A stretch of DNA of 41,375 nucleotides from a virus (lineage: Duplodnaviria > Caudoviricetes). The notes under the pieces are model-generated. The model did not search any database. It was given only the letters and a program-made list of their open reading frames with translations, and was not told the DNA's origin. Both the position numbers and the translations under genes were made by a program. The stretch lies in IMG/VR virus record IMGVR_UViG_3300043393_000053, positions 1 to 41,375 of that record; one strand, given 5' to 3'. The first letter of the stretch is position 1, and each line of letters starts with the position of its first letter. Of the stretch, positions 1,917-34,093 are shown one piece after another.

Positions 1917-2007
1917 CGAAACCTTTGGGGGGTGGGTTTTATGGGCGCAGTACGCGGCCGGTGTGTACGGTGAATGCCTCACTGCAATCGGGATCGTGAA
2001 ACGCTGA
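1783..2007 (+). CDS. Outer-membrane lipoprotein spanin (Rz1-like)
   Basis: Overlaps the Rz-like gene in another frame; lipobox-like LTVCGC; Pro-rich. Confidence 0.75.
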   Translation: MNARYFVTVALALTVCGCSTVHQPLPQGPSPLVLASCPLLAPLADETFGGWVLWAQYAAGVYGECLTAIGIVKR

Positions 2008-2382
2008 CTCGTTGATCCGGTCAGATTCATGACGCTCTTTGCGCGACAGCATGCGCGGCCACAGTTCGGCGACGCGAGCGAGAACCGCAGTGCGCCCCTC
2101 TAGCGCCGCCACCGGCTCACTGTTGATCGCCACAGCGAACTGATCTGAGCGCACCCGCCGAATGCCGCGCTGCGCCGGGATGCTGGCGCTGATCGTAGTC
2201 GATCCATACCGCGTGGTGACTATGATGCTCACCCACTCTTCGCCCACTGCCGGGTCAGCCTGGCGTTCTGGCAGGGCAACACGTCGCGCAAGATCAGCCG
2301 CAAAGTGCGCAGCCATCGCCTCGTGATAGGCAGGCGGCATCACCTTGCGGCGTTTGCGGTAGTGCTGAAAATTCGAGCGCAT
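1939..2382 (-). CDS. Hypothetical protein immediately left of the cassette array
   Basis: 147-aa ORF, last gene of the leftward arm; no recognisable motif. Confidence 0.55.
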   Translation of the reverse strand: MRSNFQHYRKRRKVMPPAYHEAMAAHFAADLARRVALPERQADPAVGEEWVSIIVTTRYGSTTISASIPAQRGIRRVRSDQFAVAINSEPVAALEGRTAVLARVAELWPRMLSRKERHESDRINESAFHDPDCSEAFTVHTGRVLRP

Positions 2383-2393
2383 AGTTTTGGAAG

Positions 2394-2419
2394 TAGGCGT
2401 ATTGCCTAGTTAGCCGGCT
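2394..2419 (+). other. Left junction of the array (attI/attG-like G|TTAGCC site)
   Basis: GTTAGCCGGCT (2409-2419) is the exact reverse complement of AGCCGGCTAAC at attC1 R''; no attC hairpin upstream; preceded by inverted repeat TAGGC-N5-GCCTA. Confidence 0.7.
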
Positions 2420-2858
2420 CGTAGTCCTGGACCACTTCGTCTCTCAGGGCGTCAATCGCATACTGCGGCACCACGTATCCAGCCGCGCGCAATTGCTCAA
2501 GCCGGTCGGCGCAGTCGGTCGGGCTTGCATCGTTGAACGAGTCGCCGTCGAAAGCGAGGCCAATCGGCCGCAGCGGGATCAAGTGCAGCGAGGCCATGTG
2601 CACGCGGTTGTGCCAGAAGGCCGCGAACCCAAACACGATGCGAGCGCCCAACTCGTGCCAACGGCTTGGGTACACCATGCGCCGCTCGGTGCGGTTGTAT
2701 GTGCCGCCAAAACTCGGCAGGCGCATTACCGGCACGTCAGGTATAGGCGGCACGCGGCGGCGGCTACCGGCAACGTGCGTTGCCCATCCGCCGCCAACAT
2801 CGGCATACACGTACACGTCGCAGCGCCAATTCATGCTGCTCCATCTGCAATAACTCAT
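2406..2858 (-). CDS. Cassette 1 hypothetical protein
   Basis: 150-aa ORF filling the cassette; stop codon lies just outside the crossover G. Confidence 0.8.
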   Translation of the reverse strand: MSYCRWSSMNWRCDVYVYADVGGGWATHVAGSRRRVPPIPDVPVMRLPSFGGTYNRTERRMVYPSRWHELGARIVFGFAAFWHNRVHMASLHLIPLRPIGLAFDGDSFNDASPTDCADRLEQLRAAGYVVPQYAIDALRDEVVQDYEPAN

Positions 2859-2892
2859 GCTCTCGCCCTTACCTTTGTCGCTTCCATCAGCC

Positions 2893-2946
2893 GGCTAACC
2901 CCGTTTTCGAGCGGACTGAGTACAGCCGCTCAAAACAACGTTAGCC
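2893..2946 (+). repeat. attC-like site 1 (54 bp)
   Basis: GGCTAAC...TTT(C)GAGCGG(A)CTG/CAGCCGCTCAAA...GTTAGCC; two extrahelical bases (G and T on the bottom strand). Confidence 0.92.
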
Positions 2947-2981
2947 AGACACCAAATACCTGCATGCCTGGCGCCGTAGAG

Positions 2982-3374
2982 TTAAGCCGTGTGGGTGCCT
3001 TCCACACCACGAGCCATACGCGCGCGAGTGCGGCGCTGCAAGGCGGCTTGCGCTCGCTCCATGCACGTCAGCGCTTCGGCGTTGTCGGCGCTGGCATAGG
3101 GTCCGGCTTGGAAGCCACGCATGCGGTCGCACAGAATCGCCAGCAGGGCCTCGTGCGTTACGCCGTTCACGCCCACCTCGTTGATCGGCCCGTTCTGAAA
3201 CAAGATCAGGCAGGTGTTGGGGTCTTGGTCGTCGGGGTCCGATGGGTTCGTCGTGTTGTCAAACCCGGAAATCAGGTATGCGTGGTTCGCGTTGCCGCTG
3301 CCGGGCTCATCCATCACGCGCACGGCCAGCGTGTCGTTTGCGGGGTTCACTTTGTGGTCGTCGAGGTATCGCAT
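2982..3374 (-). CDS. tad1: Cassette 2: Tad1-family anti-Thoeris/anti-CBASS nucleotide sponge
   Basis: PGSGNANHAY...FQNGP...GV..EALLAILCDRMRGFQAGPYAS.DNA.AL...RR...R..RGVEGT follows the recalled Tad1 sequence pattern over the full length. Confidence 0.85.
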   Translation of the reverse strand: MRYLDDHKVNPANDTLAVRVMDEPGSGNANHAYLISGFDNTTNPSDPDDQDPNTCLILFQNGPINEVGVNGVTHEALLAILCDRMRGFQAGPYASADNAEALTCMERAQAALQRRTRARMARGVEGTHTA

Positions 3375-3408
3375 CGCTATCCTTCTGTGTGCCAGCGTCA
3401 CGGGTGCT

Positions 3409-3504
3409 GGCTAACCCTTCCATCGAGCCGAAAACCCCGGCTTACGGGTGGTCCATCTGTCACGTCTGCACGGCCGGGTTTTCGGCTCATGTCAAACGTT
3501 AGCC
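3409..3504 (+). repeat. attC-like site 2 (96 bp)
   Basis: GGCTAAC-CCTTC-CAT(C)GAGCCGAAAACC...GGTTTTCGGCTCATG-TCAAAC-GTTAGCC. Confidence 0.92.
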
Positions 3505-3514
3505 AGACACAAAC

Positions 3515-3793
3515 TCACGGCGCGTTCCGCATGTCATGGCTCATCGCGGTGCTGCCGCAGCGCGAACAAGTTGTGCTCCATGCGCAGCCGTCTTCGCTCT
3601 CCCACGGTTCGCCGTCCCACTTGTGCTCGCACGGGCCGCCCGTGCCGCACGCGCAGTAGCACGCGAACGGCTTGGCTGTCGTGCGCAGGGTTTGCAATGG
3701 CACTCCCCACGCATCGGCCATCTTCTGCAAATGCTCCTGCACCTCCGCATTGCGGCGGGCGCGCAGGGCCGCGAAGTCGGGCGCTGCATCCAT
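3515..3793 (-). CDS. Cassette 3, second gene: Cys/His-rich putative zinc-binding protein
   Basis: CYCAC, CEH and CSRC motifs; starts 2 nt after the acb2 stop. Confidence 0.7.
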   Translation of the reverse strand: MDAAPDFAALRARRNAEVQEHLQKMADAWGVPLQTLRTTAKPFACYCACGTGGPCEHKWDGEPWESEDGCAWSTTCSRCGSTAMSHDMRNAP

Positions 3794-3795
3794 GC

Positions 3796-4053
3796 TCAAA
3801 AGGTGGTGGGCTGTGCAATGCCGCGAATCACGGCCATGAAGCCGCGTTGCAGGTCGGTCGAGCCAATGCTGATCCAGCGTTGGTCGAGCGAAAGGCCAGG
3901 TGCAGGCCCATCCGGCGAGCCGCCGACTGCGCGCAGCTTGGCGACGTAGGCGCCGCACTGCTCGGCCAGCGACTTGCCTTCGTTCATCAGCTCCACCTCG
4001 GCCTCGCTCAGTTGACGGTAACCTGTGATCTTCGGTTGAATCATCGTTTCCAT
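3796..4053 (-). CDS. acb2: Cassette 3: Acb2-family anti-CBASS cyclic-oligonucleotide sponge
   Basis: KITGYRQLSEAEVELMNEGK...RWISIGSTDLQRGFMAVIRGIAQPTTF follows the recalled Acb2 pattern (KIKGYRDLS..EI..MN..K...RWLAIG.TD.Q.G.MA.IRAIAQP..F). Confidence 0.9.
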   Translation of the reverse strand: METMIQPKITGYRQLSEAEVELMNEGKSLAEQCGAYVAKLRAVGGSPDGPAPGLSLDQRWISIGSTDLQRGFMAVIRGIAQPTTF

Positions 4054-4091
4054 GTCATTCCTTCCGGTTGTGCGCCAGCGTTCCGGGTGCT

Positions 4092-4186
4092 GGCTAACCC
4101 TTCCATCGAGCCGAAAACCCCGGCTTACGGGTGGTTCAAATCAACGCCTGAGCGGCCGGGTTTTCGGCTCATGTCAAACGTTATGC
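4092..4186 (+). repeat. attC-like site 3 (95 bp)
   Basis: Arms identical to site 2, different central loop; R' GTTATGC. Confidence 0.92.
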
Positions 4187-4357
4187 GCCTTGCTCGTCAT
4201 CGAAGATTGGGAGCCATTCGCGGCGCTTCACATCCCAATGCTGCGTAGCAAACATCGTCGCTAGCGAATAGAGCGGGTGGTGCGGCTCGCACACGACCCA
4301 TTCGCCGTCATCCTTTTGGTGCCGAACGGTGCCGGCTGCGTGTTCTTCGTTCTTCAA
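4181..4357 (-). CDS. Cassette 4, second gene: 58-aa hypothetical protein (not in ORF track)
   Basis: AGGAG RBS, TTG start overlapping the upstream TGA, stop TAA inside R' of attC3. Confidence 0.6.
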   Translation of the reverse strand: MKNEEHAAGTVRHQKDDGEWVVCEPHHPLYSLATMFATQHWDVKRREWLPIFDDEQGA

Positions 4358-5067
4358 GTTGCACTCCTAGCTATAGAAAGCAGCAGGTCGCGGAAAGGCT
4401 CCGGCGTGGCGTTCCTGATCGCAGTCTTGTTCTTCCCGCCCACCATCGCCACCACGCCGATGCGCCTGGCTTTCTCGTAGCCGTAGCGGTCGATCATCCA
4501 TTGCGGCAGGCGCTGCTCAGTCTTGCCCCACTTCAGGTTGGGCAAGTCTTCGCGCGCAATGCGGTTCGCGTACAACCATGTCGCCTTACCACTTGCGTGT
4601 CCGTAGTGGCCTTGGTACACACAGCACGTCCACCCGCCCAGGCCCGCCGACACCCAGCCGCCACTACGCGGGGGCTTCTCGATGCCATGTGCGTCCCACG
4701 CCTTGCTGTCGGCCGGGTGTTCCAGCACGCCACCGAACGCATCCACGCACGCAAGCGCCGCGCGGAAGCACCCGCCATCGTCGCCCAGCTTGTACTGGTG
4801 CGGCTTGCGCGTGCTGCCGTGCCAGAACCTGCCCCAACGCTGGCAGGGTGGGTGCGCCACCACAGGGTGCGGCCCCGCGTACTTCCTGGCGTCGCGCGCT
4901 TCGTCCCACGGCTCAACTCCTGGCACGCCCACATAGCAGCCCTTCGGCTCCACGTAGAGGGCCGCCACGGTTGCTCGCACATCCACCGGCCGCACAACCC
5001 CTCGGTCGAGCGGACAATGTCCGGCGTTCACCGCTGGCGCATCTGCAAAAAGGTCGTAGCCGGTCAT
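4354..5067 (-). CDS. Cassette 4: DNA cytosine-5 methyltransferase-like protein
   Basis: AHPPCQ (motif IV-like) and VLEHP (motif VI-like); motif I degenerate; start codon lies inside attC4. Confidence 0.6.
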   Translation of the reverse strand: MTGYDLFADAPAVNAGHCPLDRGVVRPVDVRATVAALYVEPKGCYVGVPGVEPWDEARDARKYAGPHPVVAHPPCQRWGRFWHGSTRKPHQYKLGDDGGCFRAALACVDAFGGVLEHPADSKAWDAHGIEKPPRSGGWVSAGLGGWTCCVYQGHYGHASGKATWLYANRIAREDLPNLKWGKTEQRLPQWMIDRYGYEKARRIGVVAMVGGKNKTAIRNATPEPFRDLLLSIARSAT

Positions 5068-5091
5068 TGCCTCTCACCTCAAACGTTAGGC
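4992..5091 (+). repeat. attC-like site 4 (100 bp)
   Basis: GCACAAC-CCCTC-GGT(C)GAGCGGACAATG...CATTGCCTCTCACC-TCAAAC-GTTAGGC. Confidence 0.88.
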
Positions 5092-5388
5092 CCCACGAGC
5101 AATACATGCCTCGCAAGAACAGAATGGTTTGAACCACTTTGTCTCCGTACTTGCTCGCTCCGCATTCTCTTCGCGCATCGCTATCTGACCGTCAATGAAG
5201 CCACGCCGAAATTCATGGTCAAGGGTGGATTGGTTATGAATCCGAAGCCTGTCAACTTCATCCAGTGCAGCAAGTAGCCCGTCGCAAATCGTGCGCTCAG
5301 GCATACCGTGGCTGTGAAGTGCAGCGCCTTCCTCTGCCAGTTCGCGCAGGTATTCGGCGCGCTCCGGCTCCAGGCCTAACCCTTCCAT
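5086..5388 (-). CDS. Cassette 5 hypothetical protein
   Basis: ORF starts within attC5 (ATG at 5388 or 5418) and stops at TAA in R' of attC4. Confidence 0.65.
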   Translation of the reverse strand: MEGLGLEPERAEYLRELAEEGAALHSHGMPERTICDGLLAALDEVDRLRIHNQSTLDHEFRRGFIDGQIAMREENAERASTETKWFKPFCSCEACIARGA

Positions 5389-5740
5389 CGAGCGGGACTG
5401 CCTTCGGCATCCCCTCATTTCGGACGTTAGGCGTCTTGCTGCGGATCATGGAGTCAACAAATGAAGTAACTTGACGCACGCATTCATCACTAAATTGCGT
5501 ACCTATGCGAATGTCGCCAACATGATCGCGCCATTTATCGCCAAAAAGTTGAAATGCCACACCCCTTTCGGCTTCAAAGCATCGCTTTAGGAGTTTGTAT
5601 TTCAAGACATTTTTGTCACGCCAGCCATGAAAAACAAAATTGACTTCTTTTGAGAAGTATTGCCCTTCATTCTCAAAAAATAGCCCGAACGATTGGCCGT
5701 CTCCACGTCTTGCAAGTTCCATGATGTTAAGAAGTTTCAT
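5297..5740 (-). CDS. Cassette 6 hypothetical protein (AT-rich; reads through attC5)
   Basis: ORF MKLLNIMELARR...; no stop before the crossover, so it continues PNV... into cassette 5. Confidence 0.65.
   Translation of the reverse strand: MKLLNIMELARRGDGQSFGLFFENEGQYFSKEVNFVFHGWRDKNVLKYKLLKRCFEAERGVAFQLFGDKWRDHVGDIRIGTQFSDECVRQVTSFVDSMIRSKTPNVRNEGMPKAVPLDGRVRPGAGARRIPARTGRGRRCTSQPRYA
5374..5432 (+). repeat. attC-like site 5 (59 bp)
   Basis: GCCTAAC-CCTTC-CAT(C)GAGCGGGACTGCC TTC GGCATCCCCTCATT-TCGGAC-GTTAGGC. Confidence 0.92.
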
Positions 5741-5766
5741 TCTTGGCCTTTTGTGTTTCGTCAGGC

Positions 5767-5823
5767 GCCTAACCTGCAATTCAAGCCGACGCCTGACGGC
5801 GCGGCTTAATTGCAACTTTAGGC
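5767..5823 (+). repeat. attC-like site 6 (57 bp), crossover G replaced by T
   Basis: GCCTAAC...AATT(C)AAGCCG(A)CGCC/GGCGCGGCTTAATT...TTTAGGC; arms closely resemble classical 59-base elements. Confidence 0.92.
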
Positions 5824-6273
5824 CGGGAGCGGCACCGTGGCGCCCGTGAAAGTGTCAATCAGCGGCTTGCCAGCAGCACGCACTTCGTCCACCGTCATGA
5901 ACTTGGCGCAGGCCCCTTCTGGCAAACCGTCATCCACCAGCAGGCCATAGCGCACGGTCTGCACTTCCAGCGTGGTGCTGCATCGGCAGCCCAGGCTCCA
6001 GCCCCAGTTCTGTTCGCCGCAGGCATCGCACTTCGTGCCCTGGCACACCATGCCAATTGCTTCGCCAGCACGGACGCGGCACTTCGCATTACCGAAGTCC
6101 CATCCTTGCACAGCCTGCGGCGGTTCTGTCGGGCGCGGCTCACCAGCCATTGCGGCTTCGGCGGCTTGCTCAAATACGTTTGCGGCGTCCTGCGCGGCCC
6201 GGCCTAACCCCTTGTTGCAGCCGAGCCCCAACGGCGGGATACTTGCGTTGTCAGGCTGTGAATCTGTAGTCAT
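5818..6273 (-). CDS. Cassette 7 Cys-rich hypothetical protein
   Basis: AGGAG RBS and ATG inside the attC7 loop; stop TAA in R' of attC6. Confidence 0.75.
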   Translation of the reverse strand: MTTDSQPDNASIPPLGLGCNKGLGRAAQDAANVFEQAAEAAMAGEPRPTEPPQAVQGWDFGNAKCRVRAGEAIGMVCQGTKCDACGEQNWGWSLGCRCSTTLEVQTVRYGLLVDDGLPEGACAKFMTVDEVRAAGKPLIDTFTGATVPLPA

Positions 6274-6321
6274 CTTTCTTCTCCTTGCGCCGTTGGTGCC
6301 GGCTGAACTCGAACGTTCTAC
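6202..6321 (+). repeat. attC-like site 7 (120 bp)
   Basis: GCCTAAC-CCCTT-GTT(G)CAGCCG...CCAACGGCG/CGCCGTTGG...CGGCTGAAC-TCGAAC-GTTCTAC. Confidence 0.88.
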
Positions 6322-6667
6322 GGCAATTCAAGCACTTCAGCCCAGCTCCCGCCTTGTTCCACTGCATCGGCCATTCGGTAGCGAGTCGGCGCATCGATGT
6401 CCTTCCACAGGCAACAGTCAGCGGCTTCGCGGTGAGCTGAATACTTCTCGGCACATACCGGGCATGCTGCCGAGTCGGAATCGGCCGCTTTCCCTTGGCA
6501 GCACTCTTCGGCCTCGGTTTCCTCGTCTTCGTCGAATCGTTCGCCACAGACAGGGCAGCCCAGTTGATGAGTTCTCTGGCACTCTTTCGCTTGCCGTCTG
6601 GCACACCAGCGTCTCGTGCTCTGGCGTTCGCAATGAGGCCGCTAAGGTTGAGCGGTGAAAGTTGCAT
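6318..6667 (-). pseudogene. Cassette 8: frameshifted Cys-rich (CPVC x2) protein
   Basis: N-terminal frame MQLSPLNL...ELINW; the shifted frame continues GCPVCGERFDEDEETEAEECC...CPVCAEKY...DCCLWKD...VLELP* and has no start of its own; one G appears missing at about 6559-6561. Confidence 0.65.
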
Positions 6668-6692
6668 GTTCTCTCCGTGCCTTCGTTGTGCC

Positions 6693-6778
6693 GTCGAACC
6701 AGTTAATCGAGCGGACCTCGGGCGGCAGGGCGCATCTGCACCGGTACTGCCTCGGCCCGCTCACCCTAGACGTTGGGC
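6693..6778 (+). repeat. attC-like site 8 (86 bp)
   Basis: GTCGAAC-CAGTT-AAT(C)GAGCGGACC...GGCCCGCTCACC-CTAGAC-GTTGGGC. Confidence 0.85.
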
Positions 6779-6788
6779 AGACGTGTTG

Positions 6789-7100
6789 TCACTTGCTCGC
6801 CATAGCGGCAGCAGCGCGAACGATGGCGTGTCGGGTGGCCTCGTTGGCGTCGTTGCCGAGCATGATCTCTTCCCACGCACCATCCCCCGCCGCGGTCACG
6901 TAGTCGGCACCGTTCCAGCGCAGTTCAATGCGGCATTTCACCGCCAGCCGCAGCGCGTCACCGTCGTCTGTCAGTGGATTCCACAACCTGTGGTCTCCAT
7001 CATCGGCAAAGAGCCAATGTGTGTTCGACGAACGTTTCCACTCGCCAATCTTGTGGCCCACAGCCTTCGCCGCAGCCTCAAGAAGTTCTTTGTCTGTCAT
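6789..7100 (-). CDS. Cassette 9: conserved phage protein, NinX/ABA-sandwich-like
   Basis: MTDKELLEAAAKA...WNPLTDDGDALRLAV...ATRHAIVRAAA pattern. Confidence 0.7.
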   Translation of the reverse strand: MTDKELLEAAAKAVGHKIGEWKRSSNTHWLFADDGDHRLWNPLTDDGDALRLAVKCRIELRWNGADYVTAAGDGAWEEIMLGNDANEATRHAIVRAAAAMASK

Positions 7101-7133
7101 TGTTTGACCCTCGTTCATCGAATCGGTAGCGCT

Positions 7134-7222
7134 GCCCAACCCTTCGCTCAGCCGGACCTCGGGCAGCGTGGCGCTTTTCGCCATTCGCCAAAGCCTCGGC
7201 CCGGCTAGCTCAAACGTTGTGC
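7134..7222 (+). repeat. attC-like site 9 (89 bp)
   Basis: GCCCAAC-CCTTC-GCT(C)AGCCGG(A)CC...GGCCCGGCTAGC-TCAAAC-GTTGTGC. Confidence 0.88.
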
Positions 7223-7235
7223 AGCTTGCGACCTG

Positions 7236-7382
7236 TCAGCATCCCGCACCGATCAACTCGGCGGCGAGTTTGCGACAGGCATCCTCCCAATATGAGGCGC
7301 GGCCCGCGTTGATGCTGCCGGCCCGTGCCCGCTCCAGCCAAAACATGCACTGGTACGTCAGGTGGTGCGCCTTTTTGCTCAT
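7236..7382 (-). CDS. Cassette 10, gene 3: 48-aa hypothetical protein
   Basis: ATGA-coupled to the upstream gene; GGAG RBS. Confidence 0.55.
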   Translation of the reverse strand: MSKKAHHLTYQCMFWLERARAGSINAGRASYWEDACRKLAAELIGAGC

Positions 7383-7552
7383 GGTTGTGGCTCCTTGATC
7401 TTGAGGATCGCGGCCTCGACCGCCTCGGTGCCCACGCGCGCCACCTTGGCCGCAACCTCGGGGTACGTCCGCATTTGCAGCCGTGCCGTGCGCCGCAAAT
7501 CGGGCGGCAGCGCGGGCCGCCCCATCCGCTTGGTCGTTAGGACGGTAGCCAT
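7379..7552 (-). CDS. Cassette 10, gene 2: 57-aa putative DNA-binding protein (ribbon-helix-helix-like; not in ORF track)
   Basis: MATVLTTKRMGRPALPPDLRRTARLQMRTYPEVAAKVARVGTEAVEAAILKIKEPQP; GRP followed by a strand-helix-helix pattern; TGATG coupling. Confidence 0.65.
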   Translation of the reverse strand: MATVLTTKRMGRPALPPDLRRTARLQMRTYPEVAAKVARVGTEAVEAAILKIKEPQP

Positions 7553-7737
7553 CACTCGGTTTCCACGACCTCAAAAGAGCCAATCGGCCCCATATCGCCG
7601 TCCGCAAAGAGTTCGGCCTCTTCGCGGCTCTGAAACGTGCAAGCCAACTCTGTGTCTGTCCAGCAGCGGTCCCCGGCCGGACTGGCAAACCAGAATCCAT
7701 TGTCTTCGGCCGACTTGATTTGGTACTTAGCGCTCAT
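7552..7737 (-). CDS. Cassette 10, gene 1: 61-aa acidic protein
   Basis: AGGAG RBS downstream of the internal promoter. Confidence 0.7.
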   Translation of the reverse strand: MSAKYQIKSAEDNGFWFASPAGDRCWTDTELACTFQSREEAELFADGDMGPIGSFEVVETE

Positions 7738-7781
7738 CTTGCTCTCCTGTTGCGGGCCGCACCTTGCTGCCCATGAGCATT

Positions 7782-7830
7782 AATGTACTCCGCAAATGTC
7801 GGTGCGTCAAACAGTTTATGTACTCCGCAA
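7782..7830 (-). promoter_or_regulatory. Sigma70-like promoter inside cassette 10 with a 13-bp direct repeat
   Basis: TTGACG-17-TACATT on the minus strand (7810-7782); ATGTACTCCGCAA at 7783-7795 and 7818-7830. Confidence 0.7.
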
Positions 7831-7859
7831 TTGTAAAGTTCAGCGTTTCGGAACCGGCT

Positions 7860-7917
7860 GCACAACTGGTTTATCGAGCGGACCGCTTTCAGCGGTCCGC
7901 TCATTGCCAATTTAGGC
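7860..7917 (+). repeat. attC-like site 10 (58 bp), crossover G replaced by T
   Basis: GCACAAC-TGGTT-TAT(C)GAGCGGACCGCT TTC AGCGGTCCGCTCATT-GCCAA-TTTAGGC. Confidence 0.88.
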
Positions 7918-7927
7918 CTCCAGAAAC

Positions 7928-8065
7928 TCACTTTTTGTTGCTGCCCGGGCGTTTGTAGCCCGTCGCATCACGGTGGCAATCCGCGATTTTCGGCTGTGAA
8001 ATCATGCGCGAATAGTCTGCGCGGCGGCGCTCCAAATTGCGCGCCAGTTTTTTGCTTCTCTTCAT
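7928..8065 (-). CDS. Cassette 11: 45-aa basic protein
   Basis: GAGG RBS; MKRSKKLARNLERRR... Confidence 0.6.
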   Translation of the reverse strand: MKRSKKLARNLERRRADYSRMISQPKIADCHRDATGYKRPGSNKK

Positions 8066-8089
8066 TTGCTTTCCTCTCTGTTCACCAAG

Positions 8090-8190
8090 GCCTAACCATT
8101 CGGTCGAGGCGAAATCCCACGGCAAGCGGCCGTGTTGCGCTTCGGTAAGGCCGCGCCGCCGTGGGCTTCGCCTCACCTCAAACGTTAGGG
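8090..8190 (+). repeat. attC-like site 11 (101 bp)
   Basis: GCCTAAC-CATTC-GGT(C)GAGGCGAA...CCCACGGC/GCCGTGGG...TTCGCCTCACC-TCAAAC-GTTAGGG. Confidence 0.9.
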
Positions 8191-8403
8191 CTCTTTCACG
8201 CATGCCATCGCTGCGTCGTATCGCGCCAGGTCGGCCTGCATCTGCGCCTTCGCAATCTTGATGATTTGCGAACTCGCTTTGTAGTAGTTCTTACTTGGTC
8301 CGCTCAGCAGTCCGCTTTCCAGCAGCGCGATCACGGCGCCCCAGGTGTTAAGGTTTGCGTTGGCAGTTGCGGCCTCTTTGGCTGCGGCTTCTTTGGTGCT
8401 CAT
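8185..8403 (-). CDS. Cassette 12 hypothetical helical protein
   Basis: 72-aa ORF, stop TAA in R' of attC11. Confidence 0.7.
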   Translation of the reverse strand: MSTKEAAAKEAATANANLNTWGAVIALLESGLLSGPSKNYYKASSQIIKIAKAQMQADLARYDAAMACVKEP

Positions 8404-8428
8404 ACATTCCCTCGGTTTTCAACCAGCG

Positions 8429-8529
8429 CCCTAACTCTTCGGTCGAGAGGACCCACCCCGGCGTCGCTGTTCGGTTCTTCTGTCATCGTTGTGCCCGCCG
8501 TGGCGGTCCTCTCACCTCAAACGTTCGGC
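8429..8529 (+). repeat. attC-like site 12 (101 bp)
   Basis: CCCTAAC-TCTTC-GGT(C)GAGAGGACC...GGTCCTCTCACC-TCAAAC-GTTCGGC. Confidence 0.9.
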
Positions 8530-8879
8530 CCCAATGCATCGCGCAAGCACTCCATGCGCTCTTGCATCATGCCGTCGTGTGCTTTCGGCAGCACGGTCCC
8601 GTCCCACGCCACCAGCGCACGCAGAGCGGCGTGGGGCAGATCGCGGCTGCGGAGGCTCTTGTATGCCCCGTCCAGCAGTTCGCGTAGGCGCTTGCACTCG
8701 GCCTCGGCATCCTGTTTCTGCTGCACCACATGCCCGAACGCTTCTTTCGCGCCTTCCTCGGCTAACTTGAGCGCCTCGATCTCGTCGCACAAAGCCGAGA
8801 CTTCGCGCATGCGAATCGCCGGCCACCCGTCAGGAGTGTGGTCAACCTCAAAGACGCGCATCTGCTGTACCAAATCCAT
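8517..8879 (-). CDS. Cassette 13 coiled-coil hypothetical protein
   Basis: GGAG RBS; ends PNV* using a stop supplied by attC12. Confidence 0.7.
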   Translation of the reverse strand: MDLVQQMRVFEVDHTPDGWPAIRMREVSALCDEIEALKLAEEGAKEAFGHVVQQKQDAEAECKRLRELLDGAYKSLRSRDLPHAALRALVAWDGTVLPKAHDGMMQERMECLRDALGPNV

Positions 8880-8898
8880 TCTGTCGCTCCGTGTTGAG

Positions 8899-8986
8899 GT
8901 CGAACCAGTTAATCGAGCGGACCGCCACCGGCAGTCAGCGTTTCGTGTCGGTTTGAGCAGCGGCCCGCTCATTGCCAACGTTAGGG
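8899..8986 (+). repeat. attC-like site 13 (88 bp)
   Basis: GTCGAAC-CAGTT-AAT(C)GAGCGG(A)CCGC...GCGGCCCGCTCATT-GCCAAC-GTTAGGG. Confidence 0.9.
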
Positions 8987-8999
8987 CGACACAAAATGC

Positions 9000-9497
9000 C
9001 TACGCGATCTGCACCCGAGCAATTGCCACCAGCCGAGGATCGGCCCGCGTCAAAACGTCGAGCAACAGGCGCTTCTCTTCGAGGTACATGACCGCGAACT
9101 TCGGGTCGTGCAGAACGATGCCGGCGGTGTTGCTTATGATGTCGGCGACTTTGATGGTTTGCACCCAGGCCCACGCCTTTGAAAGCCGTTCACGCGAAGC
9201 GGCCTTTCGCTCGGCGCGGTTGCCCGCCTCCATGTCGCTCAACTGCTCCACCGCATATGCCACGACGCCGCCAAACTTGGCTTCGAGCGTGTCCAGTGTC
9301 ACGACCTGATCTTCCGTGCAATCGTGTAGCCAGCACACTTGCGCCATCACGTCGTAACACAGTTGCTCGGGGCAGGCAGTCATGGCAATGCCAACCACTT
9401 CGGCCAGGTGGTCGGTATACGGGTTGCCCGTGTACTTGCGCCGCTAGTCCTTGTGCACCTCGCGGGCGAACATCATTGCTTCAAATGCATTCATCAT
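9000..9497 (-). pseudogene. Cassette 14: HD-domain protein (RelA/SpoT hydrolase, Mesh1-like) with an in-frame TAG
   Basis: FAREVHKD*RRKYTGNPYTDH...WLHDCTED...IKVADIISN; amber codon at 9444-9446 where the family has Q. Confidence 0.8.
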
Positions 9498-9517
9498 TTA
9501 GGTTCTCCACCAGTGCG

Positions 9518-9537
9518 CCCTAACCCTTCCATCGAGG
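9518..9537 (+). repeat. Truncated attC-like site 14 (R'' and L'' only)
   Basis: CCCTAAC-CCTTC-CATCGAG matches the start of sites 2, 3 and 5; no correctly spaced L'/R' follows. Confidence 0.7.
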
Positions 9538-9611
9538 TCAGGACGCCCAACTGCGTGCCGCTTTCGTTCATTGGATTTGCAGCGATTTGTGCTGTTCAAT
9601 GTGGGTACGGC

Positions 9612-10490
9612 TCATGGCTCAACCGGCGTTGCTTGCGGAGCGCTCATAGCGGCCATTGCTGCATCGCGCTTTGCAATTTCATCGGCGGTTTTCTTGAGCG
9701 ATGTTCGGAGAGCGCTGTGCGGCTTCAGGATCGACCAGAGGGCGAGCTTTTCATCGTTGTCCTCTAAACTTGCCTCCTCAAACGCACCGACATCGTCACC
9801 CTCGTTGAACTTTTGCAAAGCAGCACGCGCCGCATTCCGAACAACTATTGCTCGTGCGGGCGTCAGGCCAAAATTCTTCGGCTGATTCAACGGGTCATGG
9901 TCATCAATGTCGTTGATCGCCTTGCCTTCCATCTCTTCGGCGGTGTATTGAGCTGCGATTTCCGGGAATGCACTGCGCAGGGCCTGGGCAGACGCGCACT
10001 TTGCAATCTGGCCTTTTGGGCGCTTTGTCCACATCGCATTGGGAGCGATAGACTTCTCTTTCCCACCCTTCACAGCGTAGTTCTCAGTCCAATATTCTTT
10101 GGCCGTGAAGTCGCAGATTTCACCAGATGCGAGCCGGCGCTTTGCAGTGACGCGGCACCACTCGGGATAGGTGATTTCCTGCCCGCCGATAACCGTAACC
10201 ACGTCGGGACCGAACTCGGGTTCCGTGATCCCGGCGAACTGTTGCGAGCGCGACGCCTGGATGCGGTACAGGTTGATGCCTGGCATGATGACATCGCGCA
10301 TCGATCCTGAATTGCGGTCCCACATGGGCACGATGTGCACCGGCTTTTGCATCGGGTCAAGCCCGGCTGCGCGGCAGTACTCAATCACCAAGCCGATGGA
10401 TTGCAGCGATGCGCCGGGGTACAGCGATGTTTGAAGTACGGCCAGCATGGTTTCGTTGTTCGGCTGGAGTTGATGCACTACGGCGTTCAT
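9612..10490 (-). CDS. bet: Bet/RecT-family single-strand annealing recombinase
   Basis: GLDPMQKPVHIVPM...PGINLYRIQA...EPEFGP...MWTKRPKGQIAKCASAQALRSAFPE. Confidence 0.88.
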   Translation of the reverse strand: MNAVVHQLQPNNETMLAVLQTSLYPGASLQSIGLVIEYCRAAGLDPMQKPVHIVPMWDRNSGSMRDVIMPGINLYRIQASRSQQFAGITEPEFGPDVVTVIGGQEITYPEWCRVTAKRRLASGEICDFTAKEYWTENYAVKGGKEKSIAPNAMWTKRPKGQIAKCASAQALRSAFPEIAAQYTAEEMEGKAINDIDDHDPLNQPKNFGLTPARAIVVRNAARAALQKFNEGDDVGAFEEASLEDNDEKLALWSILKPHSALRTSLKKTADEIAKRDAAMAAMSAPQATPVEP

Positions 10491-10870: not shown

Positions 10871-10876
10871 CAAGAA

Positions 10877-11071
10877 TCATACCGCAATACCTCTTTGTTG
10901 CAAGGCTTTTTTGAGATCGGCAGTGCGCACAATGTGCGTCTTCAGTCCACGTTTCAAATTTAGGCGAGCAATGTTTTTTGCTTCGGCTTTCAGCATTGAC
11001 AAAGGGCCTGCGACCCATGCGCCGCTTGGCTGTTGCACAAGCACGATGTACCGTGTTCGCGGTTCGTTCAT
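10877..11071 (-). CDS. Hypothetical protein
   Basis: Abuts the upstream gene in the leftward operon. Confidence 0.55.
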   Translation of the reverse strand: MNEPRTRYIVLVQQPSGAWVAGPLSMLKAEAKNIARLNLKRGLKTHIVRTADLKKALQQRGIAV

Positions 11072-12062: not shown

Positions 12063-12102
12063 TTTAGCTCCAGGGCGCCGAGACGTTCAGCGCATGGAAG
12101 GA

Positions 12103-12131
12103 ACTATAGGCATTGCCGATTGCATTGTCAA
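12103..12131 (-). promoter_or_regulatory. PL-like sigma70 promoter
   Basis: TTGACA-17-TATAGT. Confidence 0.85.
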
Positions 12132-12208
12132 CGGCATTGCCTATTATATTTTCGACTGGCAGCACAAATAATTAGCAGTGCGCTTGCGGTAAGCATCGGC
12201 AATGCCTA
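12107..12208. promoter_or_regulatory. Three 13-bp palindromic operators
   Basis: TAGGCATTGCCGA (12107-12119), ACGGCATTGCCTA (12131-12143), TCGGCAATGCCTA (12196-12208), overlapping both promoters. Confidence 0.85.
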
Positions 12209-12478: not shown

Positions 12479-12691
12479 GTGCCCCAACTCACAGCGCCCC
12501 GATACAAGCAGCGCCGGCTGCAACGCGAGCGCGAAGCCTTCCGCGCAACAGCCGAGTACGCCGCGCTGCGTGTGAGGTTTGCCGAGACGTTGGTGCGTGC
12601 CATGCCGTCGAGCATCGCCGCCGCTTGGCCCGATTCCTACCCCCAAGGGGGCGAGTGCGCCCCCCATGAATCGCAGGGGGTGGCGGCTTGA
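12479..12691 (+). CDS. Hypothetical protein
   Basis: Fills the gap between cro and the next gene. Confidence 0.5.
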   Translation: MPQLTAPRYKQRRLQREREAFRATAEYAALRVRFAETLVRAMPSSIAAAWPDSYPQGGECAPHESQGVAA

Positions 12692-13218
12692 AGCTCGAAG
12701 ACGTGCTCGCGCTTTGCATTGAAGACGGTGATTGCCTGCTCTGGCAGGGCACTATGGGCACGGGTAAGAACAAGGCGACACCTCACCTCAATTTCATCGC
12801 GCCCGATGGCACGCGTGGCCGGCTGATGATGGCTCGCACGACCTGGGAAGCGCGCAACGGCCGCCCGGTGCCCGCCGGCAAGATCGTGTACCGCACTTGC
12901 TGCAACGAGCGGTGCCTGGAGCATCTGAAACTCGGCGTGCGCGGCGATGCGCACCGGCAGCGCAAACGGCTTGGGCTCACGGGCCACTCGCCCGCCACGA
13001 TCGCCGCGCTGACGATCGGCGCACGTAACCGTGAAGGCATCGTGTGCAGCATCGAGACAGCGCGCGAGGTGCGTGCGCTGCTGTACAGCGGCCTGCGCAA
13101 CATCGACGTGTCCCGCCGCACCGGGGTCGATGAATCGACGGTGAGTTGCATCAAGCGCGGCAAAGCATGGGCGGAATCGCTACCGGCAGCGAGCGTGTTT
13201 TCGTGGGGTGGCCAATGA
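12688..13218 (+). CDS. Degenerate HNH-like protein with C-terminal HTH
   Basis: DCLLWQG...TCCNERCLEHL; SRRTGVDESTVSCIKRGKAW. Confidence 0.65.
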   Translation: MKLEDVLALCIEDGDCLLWQGTMGTGKNKATPHLNFIAPDGTRGRLMMARTTWEARNGRPVPAGKIVYRTCCNERCLEHLKLGVRGDAHRQRKRLGLTGHSPATIAALTIGARNREGIVCSIETAREVRALLYSGLRNIDVSRRTGVDESTVSCIKRGKAWAESLPAASVFSWGGQ

Positions 13219-32856: not shown

Positions 32857-33602
32857 ACGATACCGGCCAATCTCAACCGATGCGCTCAGGCGCAGGCGGG
32901 CAATTCGGTAACCGCGTATCCACCGGCCAGATGGGCGATGGCAACACCCTGCCAAACATGATGGTCCCCCAGGGTCAGCAGTACCGCAACAGCGGATTGG
33001 CTCGATTTGGTGCGAATCAAGGCAACTACACGCCCACCCCATACAATCCGCAGCAATTCACCCCGCGCACGTTCACGAGCGGAACCACTCCAGTCGGCCA
33101 GCAAGGGCAGGGCACGCAACAAGGCGGGCGGATTGGATTCACTGACCCGAGCGGGCACGGAACAGGCGGGCAGGGATCACCCTACAGCATTCCAACGGGT
33201 GGGTCTTCCTCACTCGGCAATGGGCAGACGATCTACTATGGAGATGGCAGCAACAAGGGGCTATCTCCCGGGATCGCGCGTGGAATCGGAATGATTGGCG
33301 GTGGGCTTATGGGGTCCCCAATTGCGGGTGGGGTACTCGGTCAAGTCATGTCGGGTGCTGGTGCATCGACGGCCGGAAACATGGGGACTCAGCCCTATAG
33401 CGATGCCCGCAATAGCGGGGGCTATACCGACCCAAGTGGAAGCGGGAATGGCATGGGAACGACCTACGGAAACTTAGGCGGCGGGCAAGGTACGCACTTC
33501 AGCGATGCGGCGACCAGCGCCCCAAGCGCTCCGACATCATCGCCGGATGCCTACCGTGGTGACCGCCGAACTGCACAAACCACGTCCAATGGAGGCAAGT
33601 GA
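32853..33602 (+). CDS. Gly-rich low-complexity protein (putative ejection protein)
   Basis: GGAGG RBS; glycine-zipper-like segment. Confidence 0.6.
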   Translation: MNDTGQSQPMRSGAGGQFGNRVSTGQMGDGNTLPNMMVPQGQQYRNSGLARFGANQGNYTPTPYNPQQFTPRTFTSGTTPVGQQGQGTQQGGRIGFTDPSGHGTGGQGSPYSIPTGGSSSLGNGQTIYYGDGSNKGLSPGIARGIGMIGGGLMGSPIAGGVLGQVMSGAGASTAGNMGTQPYSDARNSGGYTDPSGSGNGMGTTYGNLGGGQGTHFSDAATSAPSAPTSSPDAYRGDRRTAQTTSNGGK

Positions 33603-34093
33603 TGGGCCTCAGCAAGTCCGAATTGTGTGCCGTACTTTCATATGATTCGACAACAGGCATTTTTGTTTGGATAAAATCACTATCTAATGTTGTTAAAGTC
33701 GGCTCTATTGCCGGGAAAATTGGCAAAGATGGGCGCAGAGATATTTGCGTAGCGCGCAAGATTTACAAAGCCCACCGGCTGGCTTGGCTTTATGTTTATG
33801 GTGTTTGGCCGACAAACGTAATTGACCATATTGACGGAGACAACGGCAACAACCGGATTGATAATCTTCGTGATGTTGTTCAATCGACAAATATGCAAAA
33901 CATGCGCAAAGCCCGCATGGATAGCAAATCACAAAGCCTTGGCGTGCACTGTATAAAAAGCAGCGGTAAATTTAGGGCGCAGCTAAAGGTAGACGGCATG
34001 ACTCGGCACATTGGATGTTTTGATAGCAAAGATGACGCGCATGCTGCGTATATTTCTGCAAAACGCCTATTTCATGAAGGTTGCACGCTATGA
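33602..34093 (+). CDS. HNH homing endonuclease (HNH + AP2-like)
   Basis: YKAHRLAWLYVYG.WP...IDHIDGD..NNRIDNLR; AT-rich. Confidence 0.9.
   Translation: MGLSKSELCAVLSYDSTTGIFVWIKSLSNVVKVGSIAGKIGKDGRRDICVARKIYKAHRLAWLYVYGVWPTNVIDHIDGDNGNNRIDNLRDVVQSTNMQNMRKARMDSKSQSLGVHCIKSSGKFRAQLKVDGMTRHIGCFDSKDDAHAAYISAKRLFHEGCTL

What the first reader, a model, noticed from the sequence alone, without database searches (positions are those of the whole stretch)
2406..9497. All cargo genes are inverted relative to attC polarity and driven from the phage side
Seen: attC polarity (position of extrahelical bases, spacers, R''/R' pairing) defines + as the top strand, yet every credible ORF is on the minus strand, co-directional with bet and the PL-like promoter. 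Established: bacterial cassettes mostly point toward their own attC and are read from Pc near attI. Inference: these are phage-specific cassettes in which the recombinogenic bottom strand is also the mRNA-like strand. If captured by a host integron they would be antisense to Pc and silent, which would give a pool useful to phages and neutral to hosts.
Basis: partly seen in the sequence, partly recalled or inferred. Interest (0 to 1): 0.82.

Follow-up and report, generated by a model that had tools for sequence, protein, structure and literature searches.

The report
Phage integron array with backwards genes
This phage keeps 14 gene cassettes, two of them relatives of known anti-immunity proteins, between integron recombination sites but coded on the strand opposite to bacterial cassettes, so they are likely read from the phage's own early promoter and likely shuffled by a borrowed integrase.

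Summary
Confirmed and extended. The window is a complete 41-kb phage with no tyrosine recombinase. At 2410-9620 lie 14 cassettes with attC sites of + polarity, checked against a class 1 integron. No + strand gene is credible, and 13 of 14 cassettes score as coding on the minus strand. Cargo includes Tad1 and Acb2 relatives.

Inversion is the rule in phages for this attC family: 155 of 156 called inner cassettes, against 18 of 126 in bacterial arrays. Blocks shared between phages often end at G|TT of R'. Two phage-type inverted cassettes sit in a complete host integron, one 88% identical to a phage cassette. Related phages encode a true IntI as the last gene of the same operon.

This phage has instead, at that slot, a small unknown protein behind a fixed attI-like dock. 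That family occurs in 18 of 48 IntI-less array records and 0 of 42 IntI-bearing ones.

Transcription, silence in hosts and recombination are inferred, not shown. Phage CALINs are published. I found no paper on the inversion. This scan noted inverted phage arrays before, on other DNA.

The parts
1939..2382 (-). Dock-adjacent small basic protein (147 aa, conserved core about 110 aa), in the slot that intI holds in related phages; no known family
2390..2415 (+). attI-like dock; crossover G|TT at 2409/2410; first cassette starts here
   Evidence: R' flank matches own R'' in 8 of 9 bases; near-same dock in an unseeded prophage piece L565; not of the IntI-phage attI family
2406..2858 (-). Cassette 1 gene (phrog_13573, unknown); its stop lies just beyond the crossover
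2893..2946 (+). attC1 (54 nt, one-base-short spacer)
2982..3374 (-). Cassette 2 gene: Tad1 (Thoeris anti-defence 1) relative
   Evidence: PDB 8kbb E 6e-13, 7uav E 4e-12
3409..3504 (+). attC2
3515..3793 (-). Cassette 3, second gene (Cys-rich, unknown)
3796..4053 (-). Cassette 3, first gene: Acb2 relative
   Evidence: Pfam PF24729 over cut-off; PDB 8h2j p26 E 3e-11; the name Acb2 for p26 is recalled
4092..4186 (+). attC3, near copy of attC2
4181..5067 (-). Cassette 4: gene 4354-5067 (phrog_12600) starting inside attC4 with a ribosome-binding site, and small ORF 4181-4357 ending in R'
4992..5091 (+). attC4
5086..5418 (-). Cassette 5 ORF (weak coding score), stop in R'
5374..5432 (+). attC5
5297..5740 (-). 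Cassette 6 ORF (43% G+C), reads on through attC5
5767..5823 (+). attC6, aadA1-like; T in place of the G of R'
5818..6273 (-). Cassette 7 gene, start inside attC7, stop in R'
6202..6321 (+). attC7
6316..6692 (-). Cassette 8 cargo: no frame scores positive; a Cys-rich frame without a start codon suggests a frameshifted gene
6693..6778 (+). attC8
6789..7184 (-). Cassette 9 gene (phrog_5086), possible start inside attC9
7134..7222 (+). attC9
7236..7810 (-). Cassette 10: promoter-like site 7810-7782 and three small genes (7552-7737, 7379-7555, 7236-7382)
   Evidence: homologs of the middle gene lie in other inverted cassettes
7860..7917 (+). attC10 (degenerate R', short spacer)
7928..8065 (-). Cassette 11 short ORF (weak)
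8090..8190 (+). attC11
8185..8403 (-). Cassette 12 gene; a leader from inside attC12 ends over its start; stop in R'
8429..8529 (+). attC12
8517..8879 (-). Cassette 13 gene
8899..8986 (+). attC13
9000..9497 (-). Cassette 14: HD-domain gene broken by an in-frame stop at 9444-9446; a leader from inside attC14 ends over its start
   Evidence: Pfam HD_4
9518..9620 (+). attC14, right arm degenerate and overlapped by the end of bet; no R'
9612..10490 (-). bet/RecT single-strand annealing protein
10876..10903 (-). Promoter-like site (9 of 12) upstream of bet
12103..12131 (-). PL-like promoter (11 of 12 consensus)

Best explanation
The phage's leftward early gene block ends in 14 integron-type cassettes whose genes lie on the bottom strand of their attC sites, so they are likely transcribed from the phage's own early promoters and likely excised and inserted by an IntI supplied in trans. 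SHOWN: attC anatomy and polarity; minus-strand cargo; the same layout in nearly all phage arrays of this attC family; the unit of exchange (cargo plus its right-hand attC, cut at G|TT); a fixed dock at 2409/2410; no recombinase in this genome. INFERRED: (1) The enzyme is the host's chromosomal IntI or the IntI of a co-resident phage. (2) New cassettes enter at the dock, the promoter-distal end, so capture does not push older genes away from the promoter, the reverse of Pc logic. (3) Starts inside the attC loop let ribosomes load on or read through the hairpin that now precedes each gene. (4) The layout descends from phage integrons in which intI is the last gene of the early operon, which makes bottom-strand coding the only way to share that transcript. 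(5) The small dock gene is a platform accessory that took intI's slot. (6) The cargo serves early infection, partly counter-defence (Tad1, Acb2 relatives). In a host integron such cassettes face Pc and would mostly be unexpressed.
For: Polarity. Rule in phages: inner cassettes 155 inverted, 1 canonical, 5 uncalled of 161 in viral loci; 18 inverted, 108 canonical, 83 uncalled of 209 in bacterial loci; by overlap cluster 84 of 86 against 9 of 74. Built inverted: an in-loop start with ribosome-binding site fused to the gene in 63 of 254 phage cassettes against 7 of 158 canonical bacterial ones, p 1e-8; the stop is the TAA of R' in 63 of 154, mirroring the TAA of R'' in 32 of 105 bacterial ones. 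Crossover: of 38 ends of near-identical blocks shared between phages, 21 lie within 40 nt of a called site, 16 of them at R'; one 394-nt block is exactly one cassette with different neighbours. Operon: 50 of 53 arrays continue co-directional genes; promoter at 12131. Host IntI handles them: complete integron in G001 with two adjacent inverted phage-type cassettes, one 88% identical over 738 nt with the same ends. Phage IntI: 45 of 47 phage-contig integrases pass the TIGR02249 cut-off; in all 24 loci with attC upstream the sites face away from intI, and cargo is 37 inverted, 2 canonical, 2 uncalled. Dock: the platform is conserved up to G|TT and differs after it. Dock gene in 18 of 48 IntI-less and 0 of 42 IntI-bearing records, p 2e-6.
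Against: There are no transcript or recombination data. The strand caller is my own: 82% right on raw held-out fragments and 96% after cleaning, which is optimistic; it leaves 40% of inner bacterial cassettes uncalled. 5 of the 21 block ends lie at R''/L'', and the Tad1 cassette here and in L016 (91% identical proteins) has unrelated attC bodies, so bodies also swap by another route. The window's dock ranks only 891 of 1199 GTT sites against the IntI-phage attI matrix and in the top 7% in a leave-one-out test. attC6, attC10 and attC14 have damaged R' boxes and two genes look broken, so part of the array may be frozen. Coupled leaders are not enriched (13 of 254 against 15 of 158). Named counter-defence cargo is rare in the survey: 30 of 150 cargo proteins hit PHROGs, mostly unknown families, and none hit the Acb2/Tad1 Pfam model. 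30 of 48 IntI-less records show no dock gene, though many are fragments. The survey covers one attC family, found with three patterns.
Confidence: 0.72

Rival explanations
1. The cassettes were once placed by IntI, but in this integrase-less phage they now move mainly by Bet-driven homologous recombination between similar attC arms, and the dock is a relic.
For: bet sits directly beside the array. attC2 and attC3 are near copies. 5 of 21 block ends lie at R''/L'', and attC bodies swap between homologous cassettes. Three damaged R' boxes. No recombinase in the genome.
Against: Most ends fall within a few bases of G|TT. The platform is conserved exactly up to G|TT with different first cassettes behind it. 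Extrahelical base and spacers are kept in 11 of 13 sites. The dock gene is kept and excludes IntI.
Confidence: 0.14
2. The small dock protein is itself the recombinase, or a subunit of a new one, and these arrays do not need IntI.
For: It holds intI's slot, is basic, and is never found with IntI. In the loci with upstream sequence it follows a dock and an array.
Against: About 110 aa. Only two glycines are nearly invariant in 126 rows, with no fixed catalytic residue. The sites keep IntI-type attC anatomy, and related cassettes sit in a host IntI array.
Confidence: 0.06
3. Polarity is reversed in function: the top strand is the recombined one, so the genes are canonical relative to the working site.
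For: Stops often use the TAA in R', as canonical stops use R''. Some block ends lie at R''.
Against: All three strand marks and the match to aadA1 attC say + is top. Starts inside the right-hand attC tie the gene to that site. A 99%-identical cassette keeps its right attC and changes its left. In the host array the left attC is host type. In IntI phages attI and intI stand in the normal place.
Confidence: 0.05
4. The array is a piece of a host integron picked up by chance, and its genes are host cargo.
For: The attC family is that of Burkholderiales-type chromosomal integrons. Such captures are reported for Vibrio prophages (PMC9892861).
Against: Host cassettes are mostly canonical. Cargo hits phage families; Tad1 relatives lack a nearby attC in 44 of 47 phage loci, so there they are ordinary phage genes. 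attC lengths here vary from 54 to 120 nt, unlike the uniform host arrays.
Confidence: 0.03

Closest known systems
Phage-borne CALINs and integrons (Qi et al. 2023, PMC9892861; I read parts 1-4 of 7 of the text, i.e. all but most references, and part 1 of 2 of the supplement)
   Same: attC cluster in a phage without intI; small unknown genes; DNA methyltransferases as frequent cargo; phage attC bottom strands recombined by IntI1 in their assay.
   Different: They list 17 CALINs, those tabulated with 2-4 sites, and do not describe antisense cargo (word search). Their model case TJE1 is canonical: genes and attC top strand on the same strand. Their complete phage integrons are captured host or plasmid pieces. 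Here there are 14 cassettes, all inverted, with a dock and a dock gene, and relatives with a phage-clustered IntI inside the early operon.
Sedentary chromosomal and class 1 integrons; attC anatomy after Nivina et al. 2016 (PMC5027507, passages read)
   Same: R''/L''/L'/R' boxes, extrahelical base, unpaired spacer, bottom-strand folding bias, crossover at G|TT, cassettes of one or a few genes; same soil/freshwater attC family.
   Different: Genes run against attC polarity; no intI; no Pc needed; the newest cassette would be farthest from the promoter; starts often lie inside the attC loop. Nivina's 'wrong orientation' turns gene and attC together and cannot give this layout.
Inverted-integrase integrons of Treponema (Cury et al. 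2016, bioRxiv 10.1101/030866, passages read)
   Same: intI and cargo genes read in one direction.
   Different: There intI is turned relative to attC. In the phage integrons seen here intI and attC keep the usual geometry and the cargo is turned.
attG insertions and SALINs (bioRxiv 10.1101/2022.09.11.507474, passages read)
   Same: IntI can place cassettes at non-att sites, which could seed an array in a phage.
   Different: The dock here is a fixed, reused platform with a linked gene family, not a scattered secondary site.
Reverse-facing toxin-antitoxin cassettes of chromosomal integrons (recalled; examples seen)
   Same: Genes against attC polarity.
   Different: Those are a minority with their own promoter. 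Here inversion is the rule, and most cassettes have no promoter-like site (10 of 155, no more than shuffles).

Membership tests
attC site | R'' and R' boxes ending in AAC / starting with GTT | tested here: met
   11 of 14 intact; attC6 and attC10 have T for G; attC14 lacks R'
attC site | L''/L' pairing with an extrahelical base, 5/6-nt unpaired spacer | tested here: met
   + model better in 11 of 13; two sites have a one-base-short spacer
attC site | Bottom strand folds better than top | tested here: met
   12 of 13, 1 tie
attC site | Recombined by IntI as a folded bottom strand | not testable with these tools
   Indirect only: block ends at G|TT, related cassettes in a host integron
CALIN | Two or more attC sites on one strand, less than 4 kb apart | tested here: met
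   14 sites, largest gap under 1 kb
CALIN | No integron integrase nearby | tested here: met
   No TIGR02249 match at E 0.001 in the complete genome; the model rings on all 14 control genomes
Complete integron | intI gene | tested here: not met
   met in relatives
Complete integron | attI site | tested here: inconclusive
   Behaves like one in relatives, but does not match the IntI-phage attI matrix
Complete integron | Cassette genes on the top strand, read from Pc | tested here: not met
   No + ORF with positive coding score; no promoter-like site on + before the dock
Tad1 sponge proteins (cassette 2) | Sequence relation to solved Tad1 chains | tested here: met
   E 6e-13 to 6e-12 with six Tad1 entries
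Tad1 sponge proteins (cassette 2) | Binds the immune signal and blocks Thoeris/CBASS | not testable with these tools
   Needs an assay
Acb2 sponge proteins (cassette 3) | Acb2/Tad1 hairpin domain and relation to solved p26 | tested here: met
   PF24729 51.5 bits, cut-off 27; E 3e-11
Acb2 sponge proteins (cassette 3) | Binds cyclic oligonucleotides | not testable with these tools
   Needs an assay
Tyrosine recombinases (dock protein) | Profile match and conserved catalytic residues | tested here: not met
   No TIGR02249, Pfam or PHROG match; no invariant catalytic residue in 126 rows
Tyrosine recombinases (dock protein) | Fold | tested here: inconclusive
   Best Z 3.8 (rmsd 2.5, 48 aligned) against 48,161 chains

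The most novel reading that the evidence does not exclude
Phages run their own mirror-image integron system with two platform types. One encodes a phage-clade IntI at the end of the early operon. The other, as here, has swapped intI for a small dedicated adaptor that recruits a borrowed IntI to a phage-specific dock. Ordinary phage early genes such as Tad1 are turned into cassettes, shuffled among phages and parked antisense in host integrons, which makes the host's defence-collecting machine a library of counter-defence genes.
Probability: 0.3. Interest if true: 0.92.

Novelty: new variant of a known kind. Interest (0 to 1): 0.8.

Why it matters
Integrons are known as stores of resistance and anti-phage genes (listings of bioRxiv 2024.07.02.601686 and .601719 seen). 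This shows phages using the same sites for their own early and counter-defence genes, with the expression logic reversed. It gives a precise way to mine phage accessory genes: small ORFs between attC sites on the bottom strand. It bears on the open question of how cassettes are made, named as outstanding in PMC8618304 (passage read). Tad1 relatives occur both as plain phage genes (44 of 47 loci) and as cassettes (3 of 47, plus this window), and in cassette genes start and stop codons are often built into the attC boxes in mirror image. It also means that cassette catalogues which assume top-strand genes will misread these arrays, and that inverted cassettes in host integrons may be of phage origin.

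Tried and rejected
Rfam: no match at E 1.

Named phages: no close relative of the array among 50,697 records, only single-gene pieces.

RNA: no RNA holder listed. The one DNA run may be the source sample; about half of it was read and most of the array was not covered. Two contigs end at 2413-2415, at the dock, which is only a weak hint of a branch point; the listed joints have short sides within attC repeats and I did not use them.

The window's own cassettes in host arrays: none among 336 bacterial cassette regions.

Dock protein: two metagenome scans found no relative. No Pfam, PHROG or PDB sequence match. The Atlas hit scored 0.75, a lead only. No fold match by Foldseek or VIA-align; this does not show that the fold is new.

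Stop-codon reassignment as the cause of the stop in cassette 14: rejected, as 5 of 53 called genes end in TAG.

Idea that the Sulfuritalea prophage sits at the host integron: rejected, as the host intI is on another contig.

Translational coupling by in-loop leaders as a general rule: not enriched. One search had an offset error and is superseded.

IntI tree: only the quick search finished. The 35-row phage group has SH-aLRT 94, phage rows were gathered by likeness to one phage query, and hosts come mostly from one family, so a single origin is not shown.

Literature: 8 searches found no paper describing antisense cargo as the rule in phage arrays, a phage IntI in the early operon, or the dock gene. 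Subscription-only papers are not in the library. The Dryad GenBank file and the figures of PMC9892861, which I could not see, may show inverted ORFs in some of their other CALINs.

Full report
WHAT THE WINDOW IS. The window is a whole virus record of 41,375 bases with direct terminal repeats. PHROG hits give a lambdoid order: lysis genes at the left end, the array, bet, a Cro-like regulator, replication, nin genes, terminase, portal, head and tail. The integron-integrase profile, which rings on all 14 control genomes, finds nothing, so no tyrosine recombinase is detectable. I saw no cI gene between the divergent promoters.

THE OBSERVATION. Thirteen full attC sites and a fourteenth without R' lie on + between 2893 and about 9620; shuffled sequence gives none. 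Four tests fix polarity. First, attC6 aligns with the aadA1 attC of class 1 integrons on the strand of the aadA1 gene. Second, a matrix from the window finds all four cassette sites of that integron on the gene strand, and a matrix from 322 bacterial sites finds 8 window sites, all on +. Third, the extrahelical-base model fits + in 11 of 13 sites. Fourth, the bottom strand folds better in 12 of 13. Each cassette's R' flank matches its own R'' better than the previous one's in 12 of 13, the mark of cassettes joined at G|TT, and the first cassette starts at 2409/2410. A codon-pair model scores no + ORF above zero and 13 of 14 minus ORFs above zero; it calls all four class 1 cassettes correctly. 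Cassette 2 is a Tad1 relative, cassette 3 holds an Acb2 relative, and cassette 14 holds an HD-domain gene with an in-frame stop.

IS IT GENERAL? I gathered 237 viral loci (three attC patterns and one Tad1 search) and 167 bacterial loci (one pattern, 6 of 64 parts of the collection). Inner cassettes were 155 inverted, 1 canonical, 5 uncalled in viral loci and 18, 108, 83 in bacterial loci. First or single cassettes were 99, 3, 13 and 11, 50, 66. By overlap cluster, 84 of 86 viral and 9 of 74 bacterial clusters were inverted. Clusters are not genomes: some related phages merge and some short loci of one contig count apart. The caller is home-made (82% raw, 96% after cleaning) and leaves many host cassettes uncalled, but the contrast is far beyond that error. 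The rule is not universal to phages: the published TJE1 array is canonical.

THE CASSETTES ARE BUILT INVERTED. A start with a ribosome-binding site inside the attC loop, in frame with the gene, occurs in 63 of 254 inverted phage cassettes against 7 of 158 canonical host cassettes. The stop is the TAA of R' in 63 of 154, mirroring the use of R'' in 32 of 105 host cassettes. In the window attC4, 7 and 9 hold such starts. attC hairpins hinder ribosomes moving to downstream cassettes (review PMC8876359, passage read), so a start in the loop is a plausible way round this; that step is inference. Top-strand insertion would turn gene and attC together (PMC5027507, passages) and cannot make this layout.

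THEY MOVE AS CARGO PLUS RIGHT-HAND attC. Of 38 ends of near-identical blocks shared between phage loci, 21 lie within 40 nt of a called site: 16 at R' (14 within -11 to +14 of G|TT) and 5 at R''/L''; 17 lie further off. One 394-nt block, 99.5% identical, is exactly one cassette between different neighbours. Against a clean picture: the Tad1 cassettes of the window and L016 share their ends but not their attC bodies, so bodies swap too, perhaps through Bet.

DRIVEN FROM THE PHAGE SIDE. In 50 of 53 arrays the first three genes beyond the last attC run with the cargo. In the window these are bet and the early genes under a promoter-like site of 11 of 12 at 12131 and one of 9 of 12 at 10903; cassette 10 has its own. 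These are consensus matches only (8 found against 2.6 expected), and no RNA run holds the sequence.

CAPTURE BY HOSTS. In genome G001 a complete chromosomal integron (IntI 466.7 bits, 14 called attC sites) holds two adjacent inverted cassettes about twelve places from attI. One is a DNA methyltransferase cassette 88% identical over 738 nt to a phage cassette in L016, with the same ends; the other is 74% identical over 236 nt to a cassette in L145. A short Rhodanobacteraceae contig holds another pair. The other inverted host calls include what I read from their translations as toxin-antitoxin genes, transposases, one intI, one prophage and weak calls (labels recalled). So capture antisense to Pc happens. 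Silence and neutrality are untested, and none of this window's cassettes was found in a host.

WHO RECOMBINES? Of 50 viral records with arrays, 46 had no match to the integrase profile, 2 had weak ones and 2 passed the IntI cut-off. In those two proviruses intI is the last gene of the early block, on the cargo strand, followed by further phage genes. Searching with them gave 84 loci, of which I examined 65. Of 47 distinct proteins, 45 pass the IntI cut-off. All 24 loci with upstream attC sites have them facing away from intI, with cargo 37 inverted, 2 canonical and 2 uncalled, and a conserved attI lies about 45 nt before intI. In a quick tree phage and host rows separate with 2 changes against 25 in shuffles, with sampling caveats. 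This offers a reason for the inversion: with intI inside the early operon, the array's top strand points against transcription, so only bottom-strand genes are read.

THE DOCK AND ITS GENE. The window's junction does not match that attI (rank 891 of 1199). Instead a 147-aa ORF starts 27 nt past it, where intI would be. Related small ORFs follow the junction in many IntI-less arrays. For one subgroup I examined 16 of 18 loci. All 12 with at least 1.4 kb upstream have an array on the other strand (5 were seeds, 2 were contigs already held, 5 were new), and the platform is conserved up to G|TT and then differs. A profile finds 175 clusters at 50% identity. The family is in 18 of 48 IntI-less array records (one more marginal) and 0 of 42 IntI-bearing records, p 2e-6; part of the 18 helped seed the profile, and records are related and often partial. 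In 201 bacterial genomes only 5 matched. One of the two strongest hits is a prophage piece with a dock nearly like the window's, an inverted array before it and a phage integrase after it; the other lies too near a contig end to judge. The model is confident (pLDDT 93: basic helix, four-strand sheet, two short helices), has no fixed catalytic residue and no fold match. My best guess is a DNA-binding or IntI-binding accessory of the dock, about 0.35; an early regulator that merely travels with the dock is about as likely.

COMPARISON AND NOVELTY. It works like an integron and qualifies as a CALIN, but it fails two defining features of a complete integron: there is no intI, and the genes are not on the Pc strand. 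Phage CALINs are in print (PMC9892861). The inversion rule, the phage IntI placement and the dock gene were not found in 8 literature searches. Earlier AI notes of this scan report inverted phage arrays and phage IntI on other DNA; they are not independent support. I had made the polarity survey and found the host capture candidates before the first look-up, and the IntI result before the look-up that names it. What this window adds is the counter-defence cargo, the near-identical cassette in a host integron, and the dock gene that excludes IntI.

VERDICT. Real, general and apparently undescribed in print: a new variant of the integron. Interest 0.8.

Noticed in passing
window 12063-12201: Divergent promoter region with two 24-nt repeats and a Cro-like gene on the right, but no cI-like repressor gene and no integrase in the genome: a lambdoid layout that may have lost lysogeny.
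   Followed up: partly
window 9518-9625: The last attC has no R'; the final codons and stop of bet overlap its right arm, which would lock the promoter-proximal end of the array.
   Followed up: partly
window 7236-7859; L016 3330-3460; L097, L107, L129, L139, L160, L174: Recurrent cassettes with a bottom-strand promoter-like site and a small gene with a Gly-Arg-Pro motif; they could act as relay promoters inside arrays.
   Followed up: partly
L425:12378-14225 (G049): A block of cassettes is duplicated in tandem inside the array of an IntI-bearing provirus, a sign of recent integrase activity.
   Followed up: no
L423 (G030): A Mu-like transposable provirus carries a complete inverted integron in its early operon, so the layout crosses phage groups (the Mu label is recalled from the translations).
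   Followed up: partly
phage intI loci L429-L512 against host loci L513-L541: No LexA-like box was found near phage intI starts, while 19 of 33 host loci had one; the stretches searched were of unequal length.
   Followed up: partly
L291:4211-7263 (Sulfuritalea MAG): A prophage with inverted cassettes between recombination and lysis genes, the same place as in the window; the genome has an IntI on another contig.
   Followed up: partly
L445-L448, L470, L473-L475, L479-L482: Several phages carry intI with no attC called upstream, some in loci too short to judge; possible empty phage integrons.
   Followed up: no
window 5427-5766: Cassette 6 is the only low-G+C cassette (43%) and has no stop before its end, so its frame runs on through attC5 into cassette 5.
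   Followed up: no
window 33599-34093, 710-1099, 12688-13218: Three HNH-type endonuclease genes, one of them inside the virion gene block.
   Followed up: no
L004:2939-3196: The one canonical inner cassette among the phage arrays, beside a small Gly-Arg-Pro gene also on the top strand in the same array.
   Followed up: no
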